A model generated the notes under the pieces. The model was not told where the DNA came from. It saw nothing but the letters and a program-made list of their open reading frames with translations, and did not search any database. The position numbers were made by a program, and so were the translations under genes. Below, one piece after another: positions 41,013 through 47,215 of a DNA stretch of 64,000 bases; position 1 is the stretch's first letter, and every line of letters begins with the position of its first letter. The stretch spans positions 288,001 to 352,000 of the forward strand of contig JAVJQW010000041.1 in NCBI GenBank assembly GCA_040218735.1, read 5' to 3'. This DNA is from Deltaproteobacteria bacterium (GTDB lineage Bacteria > Myxococcota > Kuafuiibacteriia > Kuafuiibacteriales > Kuafuiibacteriaceae).

Positions 41013-41137
41013 AGCGATCGAAGTTGTGACCGGCGCGTCGGTCACTCTCGACGCGTGTGTTCGCGACCGTGCGTGTGATCGCCGCCGTCCACTTTCCGGT
41101 GGCCGATCCCGTTCGCGCGGGGCATGGTCGGCGCAGC

Positions 41138-41989
41138 ATGACCTCCACGCAAAAGGAAATCGAAGTCGGCTACGACATCTCGAACGCGTTCTTCTCGCTC
41201 TGGCTCGACGAGAACATGCACTACACGTCGGCGAGCTACCTGACGGGTGACGAGACCCTGGAGGAGGCTCAGATCAACAAGTGCCGCATCCTCTACGACT
41301 ACGCGGAGATGACGCCCGACAAGCGCGTCCTCGACATCGGCTGCGGCTGGGGCGCCAACCTCCAGTACCTCGCGCTCGACCGCGGCGTGAAGGACGCACA
41401 CGGCATCACGCTCTCGACGCAGCAGCACAACGAGATCGTCCGCCGCGCCATGCCGGGCGTGACGACGTGGGTCTGCGACTACGCGAAGTTCGAGCCGGAG
41501 AAGAAGTTCGACGCGCTGATCTCGATCGAGATGATCGACCACCTGTGCTCCCCCGCGCAGGCGCGCGACGGCCTCGCGGTCGAGCTGTACCGCACCTACT
41601 TCAACCGCCTCGCCCAGTGGGTCGAGCCGGGCGCGTGCTTCGGCTTCCAGGCGATCCTCCGCAACCGCGTACCGCGCCGGAAGAAGGACCTCGAGGATCT
41701 CGCGTTCACCGCGGACGTGATCTTCCCCGGCGGCCTCAACCCGCGCATCGAAGAGCTGGTCGTCGCCGTGAACCCGTACTGGGAAGTCGAAGAGATGCGC
41801 ACCCAGCGCGAGAGCTACGGTCGCACCACGGCGGAGTGGCTCGCGCGGATGCAGCGTCACGAAGCCCACATCCGCGAGACGTGGGGCGACGAGCTGTACG
41901 ACAACTACGACCGCTACCTGTCCACCTGCGTGCGCGCGTTCGAGAATCACTGGTCGAGCGACGTGCAGATGAAGCTGCGCCGCATCTGA
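41138..41989 (+). CDS. CMAS-family fatty-acid methyltransferase (single domain)
   Basis: YDISNAFF..WLD..MHYT, LEEAQ..K, LDIGCGWG, VIFPGG. Confidence 0.85.
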   Translation: MTSTQKEIEVGYDISNAFFSLWLDENMHYTSASYLTGDETLEEAQINKCRILYDYAEMTPDKRVLDIGCGWGANLQYLALDRGVKDAHGITLSTQQHNEIVRRAMPGVTTWVCDYAKFEPEKKFDALISIEMIDHLCSPAQARDGLAVELYRTYFNRLAQWVEPGACFGFQAILRNRVPRRKKDLEDLAFTADVIFPGGLNPRIEELVVAVNPYWEVEEMRTQRESYGRTTAEWLARMQRHEAHIRETWGDELYDNYDRYLSTCVRAFENHWSSDVQMKLRRI

Positions 41990-42006: not shown

Positions 42007-43737
42007 TCAGGGGGTCCGGTCGTACCGGAGGATCTCGCCGCGCTCGCCGACCACGATCGCCCGGAGCGCGTCCAGCCAACGCACCCCGCCGAAGAAGCTG
42101 CTACGTCCCGTGCCGACGTCGCGCCACGTCTGTCCGCCGTCCGTCGTCAGGATCGCCGCGCCCGAATGGCCGACCGCCATGCCGATCGACGCGTCGAAGA
42201 AGTGGACCGCGTAGAGGTCGTCGTCGATCGGTGTCGTCTGGAGCGCGAACGTCTGCGCGTCGTCATCGGACCGCAGCACCACGCCGCCTTCGCCGACGAC
42301 CCACCACGACGTGCCGACGTTCGTGACGTCGTTGAGCCAGTCGACGCCCGGGGTCGCGATCGCGACGAAGTCCCCCTCGCCGGCGGCGCGTGCGAGGTAG
42401 AAGTAACCGACCGCGACCGCGGTGGAGGCGGTGCTCACGTGCACCGCGGCGACCTGCGCCGGGAACGTCCCCGCGACGTACATCGGGCGCGCGCGCCACG
42501 TCGTCGCGTCACCCGCGACCGATGACCAGTAGCCGGCCGCGAGCAGCGCATCGGCGCGCGGGCACGCGATGGTGTTGAGGTAGGCCGTCCCGAACCACTG
42601 TCCACCGAACTCGGGTGCCGATGCTCGCACCGACCACGACGCACCGAAGTCCGACGACGCGAGGATCGCGTGCGCGCCGACCGCGTACGCCGTGCCGTCC
42701 ACGCCCAAGCACACGCCAGTGAGCGGCACGCCGGCGAGCGCGGTGACCTCGCTCCACGTCGCGCCGTCGCCGCGGTACACGGAGCCCTCGGCGGAGGTCG
42801 CGAGGAGCACGCCGTCGCGGGCGTCGAGATCGATGAGCGTCACTCCGACGCTGTCGACCTCCGTCCATCCTGCGCCGAGCGGCTCGTCGGCGGGGCGTTC
42901 GCCGCGGTCGAGCCACGCCCAGAGGTTGTCGAAGTGCCAGCCGTACAGCTCGTGTCCGGCGTCGGCCTCCTCGAAGAGGATCTGCGACGGACCAAGCCCC
43001 GCGGTGCGCACGGTGTCGAGCATCGGCGGGACCGTGCCGATCAGGTAGTCGCGGTAGCCGGTGACGGCGTAGACGCGGAAGGCGTCGTCCGCGAGCGGCG
43101 GTACGCCCGGCATCGCCCAGTGTCCGCCGCCCACGAAGCCGAACCCTCGGAACAGGTCGGGGCGCTCGAAGAGCTGCGCCGTCATGTTCGTGCCGCTCGA
43201 GAATCCGGAAGCGTAGGTGCGCGCGGCGTCGATCCGATACCGCGCGCGGAGCGACGCGAGGAGCTGCACCGCGAAAGCCAGGTTGCGCTCGAGGTCGCCG
43301 ACGTTCTGGTCCCAGCGATAGACGACCGAACCCCCCTCTTGCGAGAAGCGCGACCGCGGCCGCACGACGATGAACCCTTCGCGGTCCGCAAGCGCCTGGA
43401 GCTCGGCGGTTCGGTAGGCTTGTTCGGGGCGGTCACTCGCGGTGCCGTGGAAGTCCATCAGCAGCGGCATGCCGACCGCACAGTCGTAGTCGTTCGGGAC
43501 GTGGAGCCAATAGACGCGGGGCTCGCCGTCGACGACGAGGGGTTGTTCGATGAACGTGCCGGCGACGCCGTCGCAGGGCTGGGCGCCGGCGTCGCGCTGG
43601 GGCCCGCCGTCGCGGGCTTCGCCGCCATCGCGTCGTGTTCCCGCGTCCGCCGTGCCCGAGTCGCGCGCGAGGGGCGCTTCGACGCCGCCTCCGCAGGCCG
43701 TCAGCAGGAGTAGAGCAACGAAGTAGCGCGTGGCCAA
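42007..43737 (-). CDS. Lipoprotein: PHB-depolymerase/LpqC-like esterase + YCF48-like propeller
   Basis: Lipobox LLTAC; PLLMDFHG, SGFSSG; VGEGG...SDD and TTDGGQTW repeats. Confidence 0.75.
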   Translation of the reverse strand: MATRYFVALLLLTACGGGVEAPLARDSGTADAGTRRDGGEARDGGPQRDAGAQPCDGVAGTFIEQPLVVDGEPRVYWLHVPNDYDCAVGMPLLMDFHGTASDRPEQAYRTAELQALADREGFIVVRPRSRFSQEGGSVVYRWDQNVGDLERNLAFAVQLLASLRARYRIDAARTYASGFSSGTNMTAQLFERPDLFRGFGFVGGGHWAMPGVPPLADDAFRVYAVTGYRDYLIGTVPPMLDTVRTAGLGPSQILFEEADAGHELYGWHFDNLWAWLDRGERPADEPLGAGWTEVDSVGVTLIDLDARDGVLLATSAEGSVYRGDGATWSEVTALAGVPLTGVCLGVDGTAYAVGAHAILASSDFGASWSVRASAPEFGGQWFGTAYLNTIACPRADALLAAGYWSSVAGDATTWRARPMYVAGTFPAQVAAVHVSTASTAVAVGYFYLARAAGEGDFVAIATPGVDWLNDVTNVGTSWWVVGEGGVVLRSDDDAQTFALQTTPIDDDLYAVHFFDASIGMAVGHSGAAILTTDGGQTWRDVGTGRSSFFGGVRWLDALRAIVVGERGEILRYDRTP

Positions 43738-43830
43738 CGTGTTGTTACTTTCGCCAATCCCACGGACGAAGTCGACGAAGAACCCGCGGCGTCGATCGCC
43801 TCGATCTGCGTGCGCCATCAGCCTTCGGGC

Positions 43831-44499
43831 TCAGGCGGCGCTGCGCTTCTTCGGGATGGCTGGGCCGCCCTTGTCGAGCGCACGGGCGAAGGCCTCGCGT
43901 GCGGTGACGCGGGTGATCCAGGCGTCGATGTTCGGCCAGTGAGCACCGCCTCGCGACCGGGCGGCCTCGCAGGCGTAGTACATCTGGATGTCGGCGCCGC
44001 TGAAGTCGTCGCCGGCAAAGTACGGGTGGGCGCCGAGGGTGTCGTTCACGAACCCGAAGTGGGTGTCGATCGCCTCGCGCGTGAAGCCTTCCTCGACGCC
44101 GTCGGCGATCTTCTTGATGATCGGCTTCACGAAGAACGGGGCCTTCGTCTTCTTGATGCGTTCGACGATCAGCTGAACGAGCAGCGGCGGCATCGCCGAA
44201 CCCTCCGCGTAGTGCAGGAAGAACCGGTACGCGAGGAGCGCGCTCCCGCCTTCGGGGCGGAGCTGCCCTTCGCGCTCCGCGAAGTACTCGATGATCGCGC
44301 CGGACTCCGCGAGCATCTCGCCGTCGACCTCGACCACCGGCGCGCGGCCGAGGGGGTGGACCTTCGACAGCTCTGGTGGGGCGCGGAACCGCTTCGTCCG
44401 CTGGTACGTCTTCAGCGTGTACGACAGGCCCAGCTCTTCGAGGAGCCAGAGGGCTCGGATCGAGCGCGAGTGTTCGAGGTGGTGCACGACGATCGTCAT
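43831..44499 (-). CDS. Glutathione S-transferase
   Basis: SRSIRALWLLEELG, HPLGRAPV, ESGAI, YFAGDDFSGADI. Confidence 0.92.
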   Translation of the reverse strand: MTIVVHHLEHSRSIRALWLLEELGLSYTLKTYQRTKRFRAPPELSKVHPLGRAPVVEVDGEMLAESGAIIEYFAEREGQLRPEGGSALLAYRFFLHYAEGSAMPPLLVQLIVERIKKTKAPFFVKPIIKKIADGVEEGFTREAIDTHFGFVNDTLGAHPYFAGDDFSGADIQMYYACEAARSRGGAHWPNIDAWITRVTAREAFARALDKGGPAIPKKRSAA

Positions 44500-44503
44500 G
44501 CGC

Positions 44504-47209
44504 TCAATACTCGCCGCTCGACAGCCGCTGCGCGACCTTCTTCGCGTACCCGGCCACGTCCGCCATCGTGCTCATCGAGAGCGCCTCGTTGGCGTAGACC
44601 GTGTTGCTCTGGCCCTGGAGGTGCGCTGCGCGCTCGAAGAACTTCTCGAGGCGCATCGAGTCCCCGCTGACGTGGGGGAAGAAGTCCCAGCGGCGGCTGT
44701 CCACGAGCTCCACGTTCGTCGCGCCGAGCTGCTTCATGTCGCCGTCGATCTTCTTCATCACTTCCGCGTCGGACATCCCCTCGGGCGCGAAGAGGTGGAA
44801 CACGAAGACGTCGTCGTCCGCGTGGCGCTTGATCCACGCCATCGGGTGACCCATCCGTTCGAGGTCCATGTTCTCCGCGAGGTAGCCGACCTCGGACTTG
44901 CCGTCCGCGATACCGCCGACGCGACACGCGAACGTGGAGTACGGCATGTGCTGGACCTGGCCGAAGAGATCGCGCTCTTCGTACGACGCATCGAGCATCG
45001 ACAGCGCGGCCTTCGGATCACACGCGACGACGAGCCGATCGAACTCCATCGCCGAGTCCTGCCCGGCGACCTTCACCTTCACCTTGTCGCCGCTGCGATC
45101 CACATCGACGACCTCCTGGCCGGTGCGGACGTCCATCCCTTCGGCGAGCCCGCGCCAGATGGGACGCGTGCCGTCTTCCCACATCAGTCGCGGCTTCCGC
45201 GCGCCGGCGACCGCGCGAAGGTCGAGCATCCGGTAGCCGTAGATCGCGGGTGTGGTCTTGGGATCGCCGTAGCCGTACCCGGTGAGGTACGTGTCCATGG
45301 TCCGCTGGAACTCGTTCAGGCCCTGGCGGCGGGTCACGACCGGGAAGGGATCGGCCAACGACTCGTCCGGGACTTCGATGCCCGAGAGGCCCCCCTGCAG
45401 CGTGTTGCCGATTGCGTAGCGCACCGCTTCGAGCATCAGTCGCGCCTGTTCGCCACGGCTGCGTGGCTGCGCCGGGCCGCCGGCGCCGAGGTCGTAGTTC
45501 ACTTCGTCGGGGAACTGGACCGTCTCGACGCCGACCTCGTCCGCGAACGCGACGACGTCGCGGTACTTGCCGCTGACCCCCATCGTCGCGCCGAGGTCGT
45601 GGGGCCTTCCTTCGATCGAAACCGTGTGGCTCTTGCCGCCGACCTCGTCGTCGCGTTCGAGCACGACGACGTTTGTGTGCCCGAGCTGCTTCAGCTCATG
45701 CGCGACGGTGAGGCCCGACGGTCCGCCGCCGAGCACGCAGATTCGTGCGTCCTTCGGTAGCGCGCCCTTCTCGACCTTCGGTGTGGCGAGCACCTCGTTG
45801 ACGTGCTGACGCTTTGCCTCGAGCTGATCGATCTTGGCTTTGGTGGTCGCTTCCTCGGCCTCGGTCGCGCGCCAGCCGTCGAGCTGCTTGCGCGTAGGCA
45901 GCTCGCGGATCGGTTCGATCCCGTCGGTCGCGCCGCCCTTCACGTAGACGACCTGGTCGAGCTGGAGCTCTTCGGCTCGGAAGCCGCCGGCCACCGAGCG
46001 GAGATAGAAGTCCCACATTCGCTTGAAGCGATCGGAGTAGTCGCCGGCGAGGTCGGGCCAGGCGTCGGTGAAGCCGTCGTGCCAGTCGAGCAGCGTTTGG
46101 TCGTAGTGCGGGGTGATGCGGTGGACGTCCGCGGGCCCGCCGAACGACGTCGACGCCGCCTTGTCGACCTGGTTGCGCGAGGGCGCGACACCGTCGTGGA
46201 AGATGTACTTGCTGAACCACGTGTTGCAGTTGACGACGTCCTTGTTCGACGCGATCGCCTGCAGCGCGAAGCGACCGCCGTCCTTCAGGACGGCGCTGGC
46301 GGATTCGAAGTACGGGTGCAGGTTCTTTTGGCCGACCGCTTCGATCATCTCGATCGAGACCACGTGATCGAAAGTGCCCGCTTCGAACTTCAACGGCAGG
46401 TCGCGGTAGTCACAATGCTCGAAGGTTACGCCGTCGACGTCCTCCGACAGCGCACGCGCCGCCTTGAGCTGCTCACCGGAGATTGTGATCCCGGTGACCT
46501 CGGCGCCGTAGTTCTTCGCCGCGAAGCGCGCGAACCCGCCGAAGCCGCACCCGATGTCGAGGACCTTGTCGCCGGGCTTCAGGTCGAGCTTGCGGCAGAG
46601 CAGATCGTACTTGGCGTTCTGCGCGTCCTGGAGATCGAAACCTTCGCCGTAGACGCCGCTGGTGTACGTCATCGTGGCGTCGAGCATCCGCCGGTACAGC
46701 TCGTTGCCCGCGTCGTAGTGCTCCTTCGCGACCTTCGGCGAGCGCGTCCGCGTCTGGCGGTTGAGGACCGAGTCCCTGAGATTGCGGAACGTCTGGGTGG
46801 CCCACGCGCGGGTCAACAGGCCGGGCGTCTCGAGGAGCGCCGGCACCGCGAGCAGCTCCTTCTTCGCGTCCGTTGCCATCAGGCGCGCGCACATCTCGTC
46901 GACCGCGGCGCAGTCCCACAGGCCGTCCATGTACGTCTCGCCGAGCTGGAGGTCGGGGTCCGAGAGCACGCGGGTGTAGAAGCGCTCGTCGTGGACCTGG
47001 ATGTCCCACGGGCGGCTCCCGCCGATCTCGATGTCGGCGACGGCGAGGACGCGCTCGACGTTGGCCTTGGCGCGTTCGGTCCGTGTCCCCGAGAACGGGC
47101 CGCTCGGTCCCAGCGGCGTCTGGAGCGCGGGGCTCTTCGCGGGCGCATCGCCGGTCGCGGCCGTCTTCAGGGGGCTGACGGAGCCTGTGCGAACCTTGAA
47201 ATCGGACAC
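44504..47209 (-). CDS. Fusion of Cfa-like methyltransferase and FAD-dependent PAI-like isomerase/oxidoreductase
   Basis: LGETYMDG, HYDAGN, LDIGCGFG, RMWDFYL; then GGGPSGL...VGGK...DLGA...WDFFPHV...QGQSNT. Confidence 0.85.
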   Translation of the reverse strand: MSDFKVRTGSVSPLKTAATGDAPAKSPALQTPLGPSGPFSGTRTERAKANVERVLAVADIEIGGSRPWDIQVHDERFYTRVLSDPDLQLGETYMDGLWDCAAVDEMCARLMATDAKKELLAVPALLETPGLLTRAWATQTFRNLRDSVLNRQTRTRSPKVAKEHYDAGNELYRRMLDATMTYTSGVYGEGFDLQDAQNAKYDLLCRKLDLKPGDKVLDIGCGFGGFARFAAKNYGAEVTGITISGEQLKAARALSEDVDGVTFEHCDYRDLPLKFEAGTFDHVVSIEMIEAVGQKNLHPYFESASAVLKDGGRFALQAIASNKDVVNCNTWFSKYIFHDGVAPSRNQVDKAASTSFGGPADVHRITPHYDQTLLDWHDGFTDAWPDLAGDYSDRFKRMWDFYLRSVAGGFRAEELQLDQVVYVKGGATDGIEPIRELPTRKQLDGWRATEAEEATTKAKIDQLEAKRQHVNEVLATPKVEKGALPKDARICVLGGGPSGLTVAHELKQLGHTNVVVLERDDEVGGKSHTVSIEGRPHDLGATMGVSGKYRDVVAFADEVGVETVQFPDEVNYDLGAGGPAQPRSRGEQARLMLEAVRYAIGNTLQGGLSGIEVPDESLADPFPVVTRRQGLNEFQRTMDTYLTGYGYGDPKTTPAIYGYRMLDLRAVAGARKPRLMWEDGTRPIWRGLAEGMDVRTGQEVVDVDRSGDKVKVKVAGQDSAMEFDRLVVACDPKAALSMLDASYEERDLFGQVQHMPYSTFACRVGGIADGKSEVGYLAENMDLERMGHPMAWIKRHADDDVFVFHLFAPEGMSDAEVMKKIDGDMKQLGATNVELVDSRRWDFFPHVSGDSMRLEKFFERAAHLQGQSNTVYANEALSMSTMADVAGYAKKVAQRLSSGEY

Positions 47210-47215
47210 GCGCCC

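What the first reader, a model, noticed from the sequence alone, without database searches (positions are those of the whole stretch)
44504..47209. Cfa methyltransferase fused to a PAI-like fatty-acid isomerase
Seen: one 901-aa ORF. Residues ~45-430 form a full Cfa, followed by a helical linker and a flavoprotein. Its ends (PKDARICVLGGGPSGL...LERDDEVGGKSHT...DLGATMGV; WDFFPHVS...QGQSNTVYANEALS) closely match my recollection of Cutibacterium acnes PUFA isomerase PAI. Known: plant CPA-FAS has FAD-domain then Cfa, the opposite order; TmsAB/BfaAB and UfaM/UfaD pair a Cfa with a separate flavoprotein. Inference: a two-step lipid enzyme making conjugated, methyl-branched or cyclopropyl acids. With its disordered N-terminus and GCCGATAA box it could be a membrane-remodelling effector.
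Basis: partly seen in the sequence, partly recalled or inferred. Interest (0 to 1): 0.8.

Follow-up and report, generated by a model that had tools for sequence, protein, structure and literature searches.

The report
Cfa fused to PAI-like flavoenzyme
One bacterial gene joins a membrane-lipid cyclopropane/methyl transferase to a flavoenzyme related to a fatty-acid double-bond isomerase, pointing to a two-step lipid modification that has not been described.

Summary
Window 44504..47209 (-) is one 901-aa ORF. Residues 44-432 are a full-length Cfa: NCBIfam cfa equivalog 407 bits against a cut-off of 400, and TM 0.94 to E. coli Cfa. Residues 484-901 are a flavoprotein whose only full-length solved relative is the P. 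acnes fatty-acid isomerase PAI (E 5e-42, TM 0.86; other amine oxidases reach TM 0.73 at most).

The fusion is not an artefact. Twenty-nine further protein clusters (52-66% identity) share the architecture. An independent metagenome contig spans the gene with no indels and 17 synonymous against 2 non-synonymous changes.

New here: the closest unfused relatives of both halves are encoded together in a recurrent operon, TetR-desaturase-PAI-like-cyt b5::desaturase-desaturase-Cfa. In trees each fusion half is sister to the operon form (SH-aLRT 99 for the flavoprotein, 84 for Cfa). The fusion and operon Cfas share a His266-to-Gln signature, which active plant cyclopropane synthases also carry.

Most likely this is a bifunctional enzyme that modifies phospholipid acyl chains by C1 transfer plus flavin-dependent double-bond isomerisation or dehydrogenation. 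The product and the order of steps are unknown. The furan-fatty-acid reading is weakened because UfaO was not found in the genome. Nothing supports the effector idea, and the GCCGATAA box is within chance. I found no paper on the fusion or the operon.

The parts
44504..47209 (-). Whole ORF of 901 aa (P0001), GTG start: the Cfa::PAI-like fusion
   Evidence: The frame is intact in an independent contig.
47093..47209 (-). Residues 1-39: N-terminal extension, predicted disordered and not conserved
   Evidence: pLDDT below 50. The consensus of 30 homologs has no majority residue here.
46760..47092 (-). Residues about 40-150: helical N-terminal subdomain of Cfa, the lipid-binding domain in E. coli Cfa
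   Evidence: Aligned to 6bqc from chain residue 23. Foldseek TM 0.94 over the whole chain. The domain's role is taken from PMC11387697 (passages).
45914..46747 (-). Residues 155-432: Cfa catalytic (SAM methyltransferase) domain. It carries VLDIGCGFGG and the bicarbonate-site residues S184, E290, Q317, I319, Y369.
   Evidence: Pfam CMAS 1.2e-67. NCBIfam cfa equivalog 407 bits against 400. Site residues were mapped from the 6bqc alignment and from alignment columns.
45761..45913 (-). Residues 433-483: inter-domain linker with helices 440-446 and 450-475
   Evidence: The only amino-acid changes in the independent X2 contig lie at 428 and 429.
44507..45760 (-). Residues 484-901: PAI-like FAD domain, with GGGPSG, E518, GGK, GATMG, YGYG, WDFFPHV and MS motifs
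   Evidence: 2b9w scores E 5e-42 over its full length and TM 0.86. The motifs are invariant in 30 fusion proteins.
43831..44499 (-). Glutathione S-transferase gene 4 nt downstream. Possibly co-transcribed, but not conserved next to the fusion elsewhere.
   Evidence: Pfam GST_N and GST_C. Absent from the neighbourhoods in L001-L003, L138 and L139.

Best explanation
The gene encodes one cytoplasmic, membrane-surface enzyme with two catalytic halves that act one after the other on the same unsaturated acyl chain of a membrane phospholipid.

The N-terminal half is a complete Cfa-type enzyme. Its helical subdomain docks on the bilayer. Its SAM-dependent catalytic domain transfers a C1 unit to a cis double bond, giving a cyclopropane or a methyl or methylene branch.

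The C-terminal half is an FAD enzyme of the PAI family. Its precedent chemistry is flavin-mediated hydride abstraction next to a double bond with stabilisation of an allylic cation. It would therefore shift or conjugate a double bond (isomerase) or, with an electron acceptor, add one (dehydrogenase).

Shown: the architecture, the family of each half, intact cofactor motifs, conservation of the fusion, and the joint inheritance of the two halves as an operon pair in the nearest relatives.

Inferred: that both halves are active, that the substrate is esterified lipid rather than free fatty acid, and the type of product. My rough split of the order of steps is as follows.
- PAI-like first, making a conjugated diene that is then methylenated or methylated: about 45%.
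- Cfa first, with the flavoprotein then moving or adding a double bond next to the new branch or ring: about 30%.
- Something else: about 25%.
For: 1. Both halves are full-length, confidently folded members of their families, with cofactor motifs invariant in 30 fusion proteins.

2. The fusion is conserved and selected.
- 29 further 90%-identity clusters at 52-66% identity share both domains.
- It occurs in genomes from GC 0.40 to 0.68.
- An independent contig differs by 17 synonymous and 2 non-synonymous changes, with no stop and no indel.

3. Rosetta-stone evidence. The nearest stand-alone PAI-like proteins (40-42% identity) lie in a recurrent operon: TetR, desaturase, PAI-like, cyt b5::desaturase, desaturase, Cfa.
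- A desaturase or cyt b5 gene flanks the PAI-like gene in 8 of 8 operon-type loci (L100, L101, L102, L104, L106, L108, L109, L086).
- A Cfa gene is present in 3 of the 3 loci that reach at least 3 kb downstream.
- The operon Cfa is 46% identical to the fusion's N-half.

4. Trees. Fusion and operon forms are sisters for the PAI-like part (SH-aLRT 99) and for the Cfa part (84).

5. Shared signature. Gln replaces E. coli His266, within the motif SIEMIEAVG, in 14 of 14 fusions and 4 of 4 operon Cfas. Among ordinary Cfas 22 of 27 have His. Active cotton cyclopropane synthases carry the same Ser and Gln substitutions (PMC3132707, passages), so this site is compatible with catalysis.

6. In 2 of 6 fusion loci examined, a desaturase orthologous to the operon's third desaturase (46-50% identity) lies divergently next to the fusion.

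7. The fusion is the only full-length Cfa in this genome, which is 96.5% complete.

8. Precedent. Flavoproteins paired with Cfa-family enzymes (BfaA, UfaD) act on the methyltransferase's lipid-bound product, and an engineered BfaA-B fusion raised conversion (PMC7791843 and PMC7380195, passages).
Against: - There are no biochemical data for any member.
- The desaturase neighbour is missing in 4 of 6 fusion loci, including this window. No ortholog of that desaturase was found in this genome or in 4 other carriers; the best hits were 24-26% identical paralogs.
- PAI itself uses only free fatty acids (PMC5442254, passage). Action on esterified chains is therefore an inference from the Cfa partner and the membrane-desaturase context.
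- One bicarbonate ligand (His266) is replaced. The Cfa half could be a methylase rather than a cyclopropane synthase, and the sequence does not tell which.
- In plant CPS the fused oxidase domain has no shown chemistry, and its deletion leaves 30% of activity. A fused flavoprotein need not catalyse a second step.
- Support for the Cfa sister grouping is moderate (84), and both trees are quick searches.
Confidence: 0.68

Rival explanations
1. Cfa with an accessory flavoprotein domain. Only the Cfa half does chemistry (ordinary cyclopropanation of membrane lipids). The PAI-like half stabilises, targets or regulates it, as may be true of the oxidase domain of plant cyclopropane synthases.
For: Deleting the oxidase domain of cotton GhCPS1 leaves about 30% of activity, and no reaction has been assigned to that domain (PMC3132707, passages). 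The fusion is the only full-length Cfa in the genome, so it may simply be the organism's Cfa. The N-half passes the cfa equivalog cut-off.
Against: The FAD-binding motifs and the motifs shared with PAI (GATMG, YGYG, WxFFPHV, MS) are invariant across 30 fusion proteins of 51-63% identity. The PAI-like partner also persists as a separate gene in the sister operon, where a mere stabilising domain is less expected. In G112 the flavoprotein survives alone as an intact 423-aa ORF after loss of the Cfa part.
Confidence: 0.15
2. A UfaM/UfaD-like route to furan fatty acids. The Cfa half methylates a monoene to a methyl-branched trans-alkene. The flavoprotein half desaturates it to a methylated conjugated diene, which an oxygenase then closes to a furan ring.
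For: UfaM (Cfa family) plus UfaD (an NAD/FAD-binding flavoprotein) carry out exactly this on phospholipid-bound chains (PMC7380195, passages). Plant AT3G23510 is a UfaD-UfaM fusion (PMC10940516, passages). The Gln-type Cfa signature is shared with plant-type fusions.
Against: The DUF1365 family (UfaO) was not found in this genome, which is 96.5% complete, while the control genome Caulobacter scored. The C-half is of the PAI type. It matches an algal plant-type N-terminal flavoprotein domain at only 54 bits, 27% identity over 275 residues. No UfaD sequence was available for a direct comparison.
Confidence: 0.1
3. A secreted or injected membrane-remodelling effector that modifies the lipids of prey or host cells.
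For: The N-terminus (residues 1-39) is disordered. A SpvB/TcdB-like gene lies 0.6 kb upstream. Carriers include MAGs labelled Myxococcota and Pseudobdellovibrionaceae; that these groups are predatory is my recollection, not a call result.
Against: I read no hydrophobic signal-like stretch in residues 1-52 (by eye). The N-terminal extension is not conserved. The GCCGATAA box is within chance. In other carriers the neighbours are housekeeping genes: Lnt, PrfB, YbeY, PAP2. The sister form sits in a TetR-regulated lipid operon. SAM and FAD dependence fit a cytoplasmic enzyme.
Confidence: 0.03
4. An assembly or sequencing artefact that wrongly joins two adjacent genes.
For: None was found. The window comes from a 70-contig assembly.
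Against: The same architecture is seen in 29 other clusters, in 3 named MAGs, in 3 further phylum genomes and in 2 Bdellovibrionota-sample genomes. An independent 50.7-kb contig is co-linear with no indel.
Confidence: 0.01

Closest known systems
E. coli cyclopropane-fatty-acyl-phospholipid synthase Cfa (PDB 6bqc)
   Same: The N-half matches over its full length, including the N-terminal lipid-binding subdomain (E 2e-80, Foldseek TM 0.94, 37% identity). The SAM motif is present, and Glu, Ile and Tyr of the bicarbonate site are conserved.
   Different: His266 is Gln and Cys139 is Ser. About 470 extra residues (a linker plus a flavoprotein) follow. The product is unknown.
Propionibacterium (Cutibacterium) acnes polyunsaturated fatty acid isomerase PAI (PDB 2b9w)
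   Same: It is the only solved structure matched over the whole C-half (E 5e-42, TM 0.86, 27% identity). FAD motifs and several motifs along the alignment are shared.
   Different: PAI is a stand-alone soluble enzyme of 424 aa that uses only free fatty acids (PMC5442254). Here the domain is tethered to a phospholipid-acting Cfa. The residue aligned with PAI Arg88 is Asp568 and is not conserved (hand-mapped; the role of Arg88 as carboxylate anchor is recalled, and the structure papers were not held). Many stand-alone relatives are closer to the fusion than PAI is, at up to 42% identity.
Plant cyclopropane synthases and AT3G23510 (oxidase domain then Cfa domain)
   Same: A natural fusion of a flavoprotein with a Cfa-family enzyme. 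The same Gln (and often Ser) substitution and the EMIEAVG motif occur in the Cfa part.
   Different: The domain order is opposite. The plant flavoprotein is UfaD-like (38.5% identity to UfaD, PMC10940516). An algal plant-type flavoprotein domain matches the C-half only weakly (54 bits). In the Cfa tree the plant-type sequences are a separate, distant group.
UfaM/UfaD (furan fatty acids), BfaB/BfaA (=TmsB/TmsA) and TmpB/TmpA (10-methyl acids)
   Same: A Cfa-family methyltransferase works with a flavoprotein on phospholipid-bound chains, and an engineered BfaA-B fusion improves flux.
   Different: These are separate genes. BfaA is described as an 'FAD oxidase' protein of a different family from TmpA, and TmpA is geranylgeranyl-reductase-like. 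UfaD is described as phytoene-desaturase-like. UfaO was not found in this genome.
Uncharacterised operon TetR-desaturase-PAI-like-cyt b5::desaturase-desaturase-Cfa (metagenome contigs L100, L108, L109; genome G297)
   Same: It holds the closest relatives of both halves (40-42% and 46% identity), has the same Gln/SIEMIEAVG signature, and is the sister group in both trees.
   Different: The two enzymes are separate genes there, embedded among three or four membrane desaturases under a TetR regulator. No function is known, and curated NCBIfam models do not name the desaturases or the PAI-like protein.

Membership tests
Cfa (cyclopropane-fatty-acyl-phospholipid synthase, NF008686 / PF02353) | Full-length match to the curated equivalog model above its cut-off | tested here: met
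   407.1 bits against a cut-off of 400; residues 44-432 match profile positions 13-380 of 383. The margin is narrow.
Cfa (cyclopropane-fatty-acyl-phospholipid synthase, NF008686 / PF02353) | Two-subdomain fold: an N-terminal lipid-binding subdomain plus a SAM methyltransferase domain | tested here: met
   Foldseek against 6bqc gives TM 0.94 and rmsd 2.7 over 389 columns. The model has pLDDT 87.9.
Cfa (cyclopropane-fatty-acyl-phospholipid synthase, NF008686 / PF02353) | Bicarbonate ligands Glu239, His266 and Tyr317, plus Cys139 and Ile268 | tested here: not met
   E290, I319 and Y369 are kept. His266 is Q317, invariant in 30 fusions. Cys139 is S184. Active cotton CPS1 and CPS2 have the same Ser and Gln (PMC3132707), so this does not argue against activity.
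Cfa (cyclopropane-fatty-acyl-phospholipid synthase, NF008686 / PF02353) | Makes a cyclopropane ring on phospholipid-bound cis-monoenes | not testable with these tools
   Needs FAME GC-MS of an expression strain.
[quoted passage not shown] | Full-length sequence and fold similarity to 2b9w, above that to other amine oxidases | tested here: met
   E 5e-42 over 484-895 against 1e-7 for the next family, which matches the FAD part only. TM 0.86 against 0.73 at most.
[quoted passage not shown] | FAD-binding Rossmann motifs | tested here: met
   G494, G496, P497, G499, G524, G525 and K526 are invariant in 30 homologs, and E518 is kept in at least 90%. Pfam NAD_binding_8 scores 5e-12.
[quoted passage not shown] | Free fatty acid as substrate, with a carboxylate anchor at the channel entrance (Arg88; role recalled) | tested here: not met
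   Arg88 aligns with D568, a variable column (hand-mapped; consensus). That PAI uses only free fatty acids comes from PMC5442254. The role of Arg88 is recalled; the structure papers were not held.
[quoted passage not shown] | Converts a 1,4-cis,cis-diene to a conjugated diene without net redox change | not testable with these tools
   Needs an enzyme assay.
UfaM/UfaD/UfaO furan fatty acid pathway | UfaO (DUF1365) present in the genome | tested here: not met
   PF07103 gave 0 matches in G000 (96.5% complete), while the control Caulobacter scored.
UfaM/UfaD/UfaO furan fatty acid pathway | Flavoprotein of the UfaD subfamily | tested here: inconclusive
   No UfaD sequence was at hand. An algal plant-type (UfaD-like) domain matches at only 54 bits, 27% over 275 residues.
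Plant-type CPA-FAS | Domain order: flavoprotein at the N-terminus, Cfa at the C-terminus | tested here: not met
   The order here is Cfa then flavoprotein. In algal P0032 the FAD domain lies at 11-279 and Cfa at 505-856.
BfaAB / TmsAB 10-methyl pathway | Partner flavoprotein of the BfaA 'FAD oxidase' family | tested here: not met
   The only flavoprotein hits on P0001 are of the amine-oxidase or Rossmann type. BfaA is described as a different family (PMC7791843). No BfaA sequence was compared directly.

The most novel reading that the evidence does not exclude
The fusion and its sister operon define an undescribed bacterial pathway. In it, a PAI-family flavoenzyme works on esterified membrane lipids rather than free fatty acids, conjugating or shifting double bonds made by dedicated desaturases. 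A Gln-type Cfa then adds a C1 unit to the activated diene. The products would be vinyl-cyclopropyl or methyl-branched conjugated acyl chains, a lipid class not yet reported from bacteria. The fusion would be the minimal, self-contained form of the pathway.
Probability: 0.35. Interest if true: 0.75.

Novelty: new variant of a known kind. Interest (0 to 1): 0.62.

Why it matters
Cfa-family enzymes are known to team up with three unrelated kinds of flavoprotein (BfaA, TmpA, UfaD) to make branched or furan fatty acids. This finding adds a fourth partner, the PAI family. It occurs both as a conserved single-chain enzyme and as a gene pair in a desaturase-rich operon.

If both halves are active, three things follow.
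- It gives the first functional context for the large and almost uncharacterised PAI-like family: 189 clusters at E no higher than 1e-30.
- It suggests that PAI-type chemistry can act on membrane lipids.
- It offers a compact one-gene tool for making conjugated, cyclopropyl or branched fatty acids in engineered hosts.

The Gln-type Cfa signature is shared with plant cyclopropane synthases, whose fused oxidase domain is still unexplained. A result here could therefore bear on that question too.

Tried and rejected
- Complex prediction on the unfused operon pair (Cfa alignment A4 with PAI-like alignment A3) gave 'no answer', score 0.00. It counts neither way.
- The look-up of sequencing runs listed no RNA holder, so nothing can be said about expression.
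- The PAI structure and mechanism papers (PNAS 2006, JBC 2009) are not held. A search for Arg88 and Phe193 found nothing. The roles of active-site residues in PAI therefore rest on recall.
- The search of earlier findings by sequence returned nothing.
- Literature searches for the fusion or the operon found no relevant paper (10 papers, none relevant by title or abstract; 0 papers). Supplements and subscription journals were not searched.
- The hypothesis that desaturase 'des3' is an obligatory third partner was rejected. No ortholog was found in G000, G071, G401, G402 or G557.
- The hypothesis that the stand-alone copy in G112 is an ancestral unfused form was rejected. It nests inside the fusion clade next to the window's protein (SH-aLRT 99) and directly follows a DDE transposase gene. 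No Cfa part lies within 9 kb.
- No conserved gene neighbourhood was found around the fusion in L001-L003.
- A separate PDB search with the N-terminal part alone was not run. The whole protein was searched instead.
- The careful tree search did not finish, so both trees are quick searches with SH-aLRT support only.
Full report
**1. The observation.** Window 44504..47209 (-) is a single 901-aa ORF with a GTG start.
- Pfam finds CMAS at residues 155-419 (1.2e-67) and an amine-oxidase-type flavoprotein from 492 onward.
- The curated NCBIfam cfa equivalog matches residues 44-432 at 407.1 bits, just above its cut-off of 400. No curated model covers the C-half.
- Against PDB sequences the N-half matches E. 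coli Cfa 6bqc (2e-80, residues 53-430). The C-half matches 2b9w over its whole length (5e-42, residues 484-895 against chain residues 3-421 of 424). Every other flavoprotein matches only the first 60-110 residues, at 1e-7 or weaker.
- An AlphaFold model built on 30 homologs has pLDDT 87.9 and pTM 0.86. Residues 1-39 are disordered and a helical linker spans 440-475.
- Foldseek returns 6bqc (TM 0.94) and 2b9w, titled 'CLA-producing fatty acid isomerase from P. acnes' (TM 0.86). The next flavoprotein reaches 0.73.

The GCCGATAA motif just upstream of the start occurs twice in the window against 0.55 expected, and 6 of 100 shuffles reach that count, so it carries no weight.

**2. The fusion is real and conserved.** A word-indexed search found 29 further 90%-identity clusters (P0003-P0031, 852-1048 aa, 52-66% identity) with both domains. 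Their only source names are 'FAD-dependent oxidoreductase' or 'cyclopropane-fatty-acyl-phospholipid synthase'.

Its distribution is sparse.
- Among one genome per species, 3 of the 80 best loci (out of 400 relatives) cover both halves. They are MAGs labelled Elusimicrobiota, Pseudobdellovibrionaceae and Myxococcota, with GC from 0.40 to 0.68.
- In a sample of 401 genomes of the window's phylum, 4 carry it, including the window's genome.
- In 301 genomes of the phylum of the Pseudobdellovibrionaceae MAG, 2 carry it and one holds a decayed fragment.

An independent 50.7-kb metagenome contig (run X2) is co-linear with 44400-47300 and has no indel. Of its 19 listed differences inside the ORF, 17 are synonymous, 2 change residues 428 and 429 at the start of the linker, and none makes a stop.

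**3. The Cfa half.** I mapped the E. coli bicarbonate site onto the alignment. Glu239, Ile268 and Tyr317 are kept as E290, I319 and Y369. His266 is Gln317 and Cys139 is Ser184.
- Gln317 is invariant in 30 fusion proteins.
- I compared 14 fusions, 4 operon Cfas, 3 algal plant-type proteins and 27 ordinary stand-alone Cfas. The stand-alone set came from 33 of the 77 stand-alone loci, and 6 rows were dropped because their match ranges held stops.
- Gln and the motif SIEMIEAVG occur in 14 of 14 fusions and 4 of 4 operon Cfas. All 3 plant-type proteins have Gln and EMIEAVG. Of the ordinary Cfas, 22 have His, 4 have Gln and 1 has Asn.
- Passages of PMC3132707 state that the active cotton enzymes GhCPS1 and GhCPS2 carry exactly these Ser and Gln substitutions, and that an E. 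coli C139S mutant keeps 31% efficiency.

The altered site is therefore compatible with catalysis. It does not tell cyclopropanation from methylation. The fusion is the only full-length Cfa in this genome, which is 96.5% complete. The only other strong CMAS hit is a short 310-aa paralog 2.5 kb away.

**4. The PAI-like half.** An exhaustive search of 1.84 billion representatives found 2123 relatives: 727 at 1e-10 or better and 189 at 1e-30 or better.
- Among the best 150, only one representative (P0031) is a Cfa fusion.
- Most relatives are stand-alone proteins of 410-460 aa.
- I picked 22 for a Pfam scan (the top stand-alone hits and the long ones). Thirteen carry a phosphopantetheine-binding domain, often with thioesterase or AMP-ligase domains. 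Three are tandem duplications and two have a catalase-like N-domain. None has CMAS.

The family therefore lives in acyl-chain contexts. [quoted passage not shown] In PAI the flavin stabilises a carbocation during a redox-neutral double-bond shift (PMC13076199, passage). The residue aligned with PAI Arg88 is Asp568, in a variable column (hand-mapped). I recall Arg88 as the carboxylate anchor, but the structure papers were not held.

**5. The decisive context.** The closest stand-alone relatives of the C-half (40-42% identity) are not orphans. I scanned metagenome contigs with an alignment of these relatives and annotated all ORFs of at least 130 aa near the match in 9 loci. I also examined one genome of the window's phylum (G297). 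This revealed a recurrent, tightly packed operon: TetR, desaturase, PAI-like, cytochrome b5::desaturase, desaturase, Cfa.
- A desaturase or cyt b5 gene flanks the PAI-like gene in 8 of 8 operon-type loci (L100, L101, L102, L104, L106, L108, L109, L086).
- A Cfa gene follows in all 3 loci that extend far enough (L100, L108, L109).
- Two more distant stand-alone loci (L105, L107) lack this context.
- The operon Cfa is 46% identical to the fusion's N-half and has the same Gln/SIEMIEAVG signature.

In quick maximum-likelihood trees:
- the fusion C-halves (SH-aLRT 100) are sister to the operon PAI-likes (98), with support 99 for the pair;
- the fusion N-halves (99) group with the operon Cfas (100), with support 84.

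Both halves thus have the same nearest relatives, which are encoded side by side. This is classic Rosetta-stone evidence that the two enzymes act in one pathway.

In the fusion-carrying genus g36, 2 of 3 genomes also hold a desaturase immediately upstream and divergent from the fusion. That desaturase is 46-50% identical to the operon's third desaturase, the one that precedes the operon Cfa. The link is partial, however. No ortholog was found in the window's genome or in four other carriers, and the window and L001-L003 have no desaturase neighbour.

**6. Mechanism.** I read the protein as a bifunctional phospholipid acyl-chain modifier.
- Shown: architecture, families, cofactor motifs, conservation and pathway linkage.
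- Inferred: both halves are active, the substrate is lipid-bound, and the steps are consecutive.

Two orders of reaction are chemically sensible.
- PAI-like first. It makes a conjugated diene from a desaturase-made diene. That diene is a better nucleophile for SAM, and the product is a vinyl-cyclopropane or a methyl-branched conjugated diene.
- Cfa first. The flavoprotein then shifts or adds a double bond beside the new branch, as UfaD does after UfaM.

The desaturase-rich sister operon tilts me towards the first order (about 45% against 30%).

The strict furan-fatty-acid reading is weakened. DUF1365 (UfaO) was not found in the genome. The C-half also resembles an algal UfaD-like domain only weakly (54 bits). 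The rival that the flavoprotein is merely accessory, as may hold for plant CPS, keeps about 15%. Nothing supports an effector role.

**7. Novelty.** Cfa-flavoprotein partnerships are known: BfaAB, TmpBA, UfaMD and plant CPS. A survey of PF02353 proteins states that more than 97% are unfused (PMC11387697, passage). I found no paper on a Cfa::PAI fusion or on the desaturase/PAI-like/Cfa operon. Curated libraries name neither the PAI-like proteins nor the partner desaturases. I rate this a new variant of a known kind, of solid interest to lipid biochemists. The product remains to be found.

Noticed in passing
Loci L100 (1742-7484), L109 (3019-8344), L108 (3-5040); partial in L101, L102, L104, L106; genome G297 (L086): A recurrent uncharacterised operon: TetR, fatty-acid desaturase, PAI-like flavoprotein, cytochrome b5::desaturase, small desaturase, Cfa. 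L108 holds a fourth desaturase. NCBIfam has no curated name for the desaturases or the flavoprotein.
   Followed up: partly
L082 / L093 (genome G112, same family as the window's genome): A 423-aa stand-alone PAI-like ORF is 74% identical to the fusion's C-half and directly follows a DDE transposase gene. No Cfa part lies within 9 kb. In the tree it is sister to the window's protein, so it is probably a fusion gene truncated by an insertion sequence that still keeps an open frame.
   Followed up: yes
window 41057-41989 (+): [quoted passage not shown] It lies 2.5 kb from the fusion on the other strand and is the only other strong CMAS hit in the genome.
   Followed up: partly
window 47852-50527 (-): An 891-aa protein with SpvB, FG-GAP and TcdB_toxin_midN domains (the N-terminal part of a Tc-toxin B-like or Rhs-type protein), 0.6 kb upstream of the fusion on the same strand. 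A further FG-GAP repeat protein lies at 51265-52470 (-).
   Followed up: no
window 50564-51219 (+): A FitA-like ribbon-helix-helix antitoxin (82 aa) overlaps the start of a PIN-domain protein (136 aa): a VapBC/FitAB-type toxin-antitoxin pair.
   Followed up: no
window 47253-47909 (+): A TPR-repeat gene is transcribed divergently from the fusion gene. Only about 44 nt separate its first ATG from the fusion's GTG, so the two must share a very short control region.
   Followed up: no
window 42007-43818 (-) and 43831-44499 (-): Downstream of the fusion lie a glutathione S-transferase gene (4-nt gap) and then a 603-aa protein with a PHB-depolymerase-type esterase domain and BNR/Ycf48-like repeats. 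Neither is conserved next to the fusion in other genomes.
   Followed up: partly
Proteins P0077 and P0091; P0062, P0065-P0067, P0070, P0079 and others: PAI-like domains are embedded in large proteins with acyl-AMP ligase, carrier-protein and thioesterase domains. In two cases they sit behind a catalase-like N-domain. This suggests that PAI-type chemistry also acts on carrier-bound acyl chains in natural-product pathways.
   Followed up: no
L143 (genome G424): A fragment of the fusion's C-half (58% identity over residues 275-413 of the domain) carries three in-frame stops. It is a decayed copy in a Bdellovibrionota-sample genome.
   Followed up: no
L138 (G030), L139 (G056), L003 (G071): In genus g36 the fusion sits in the conserved housekeeping synteny YbeY-Lnt-[desaturase]-fusion-PrfB. 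The desaturase is present in two of the three genomes.
   Followed up: yes
window 44400-47300, runs X2-X5: Near-identical DNA is present in contigs from sponge, aquaculture and biofloc metagenomes of three studies. One sponge-metagenome contig of 50.7 kb is co-linear with the whole stretch.
   Followed up: partly
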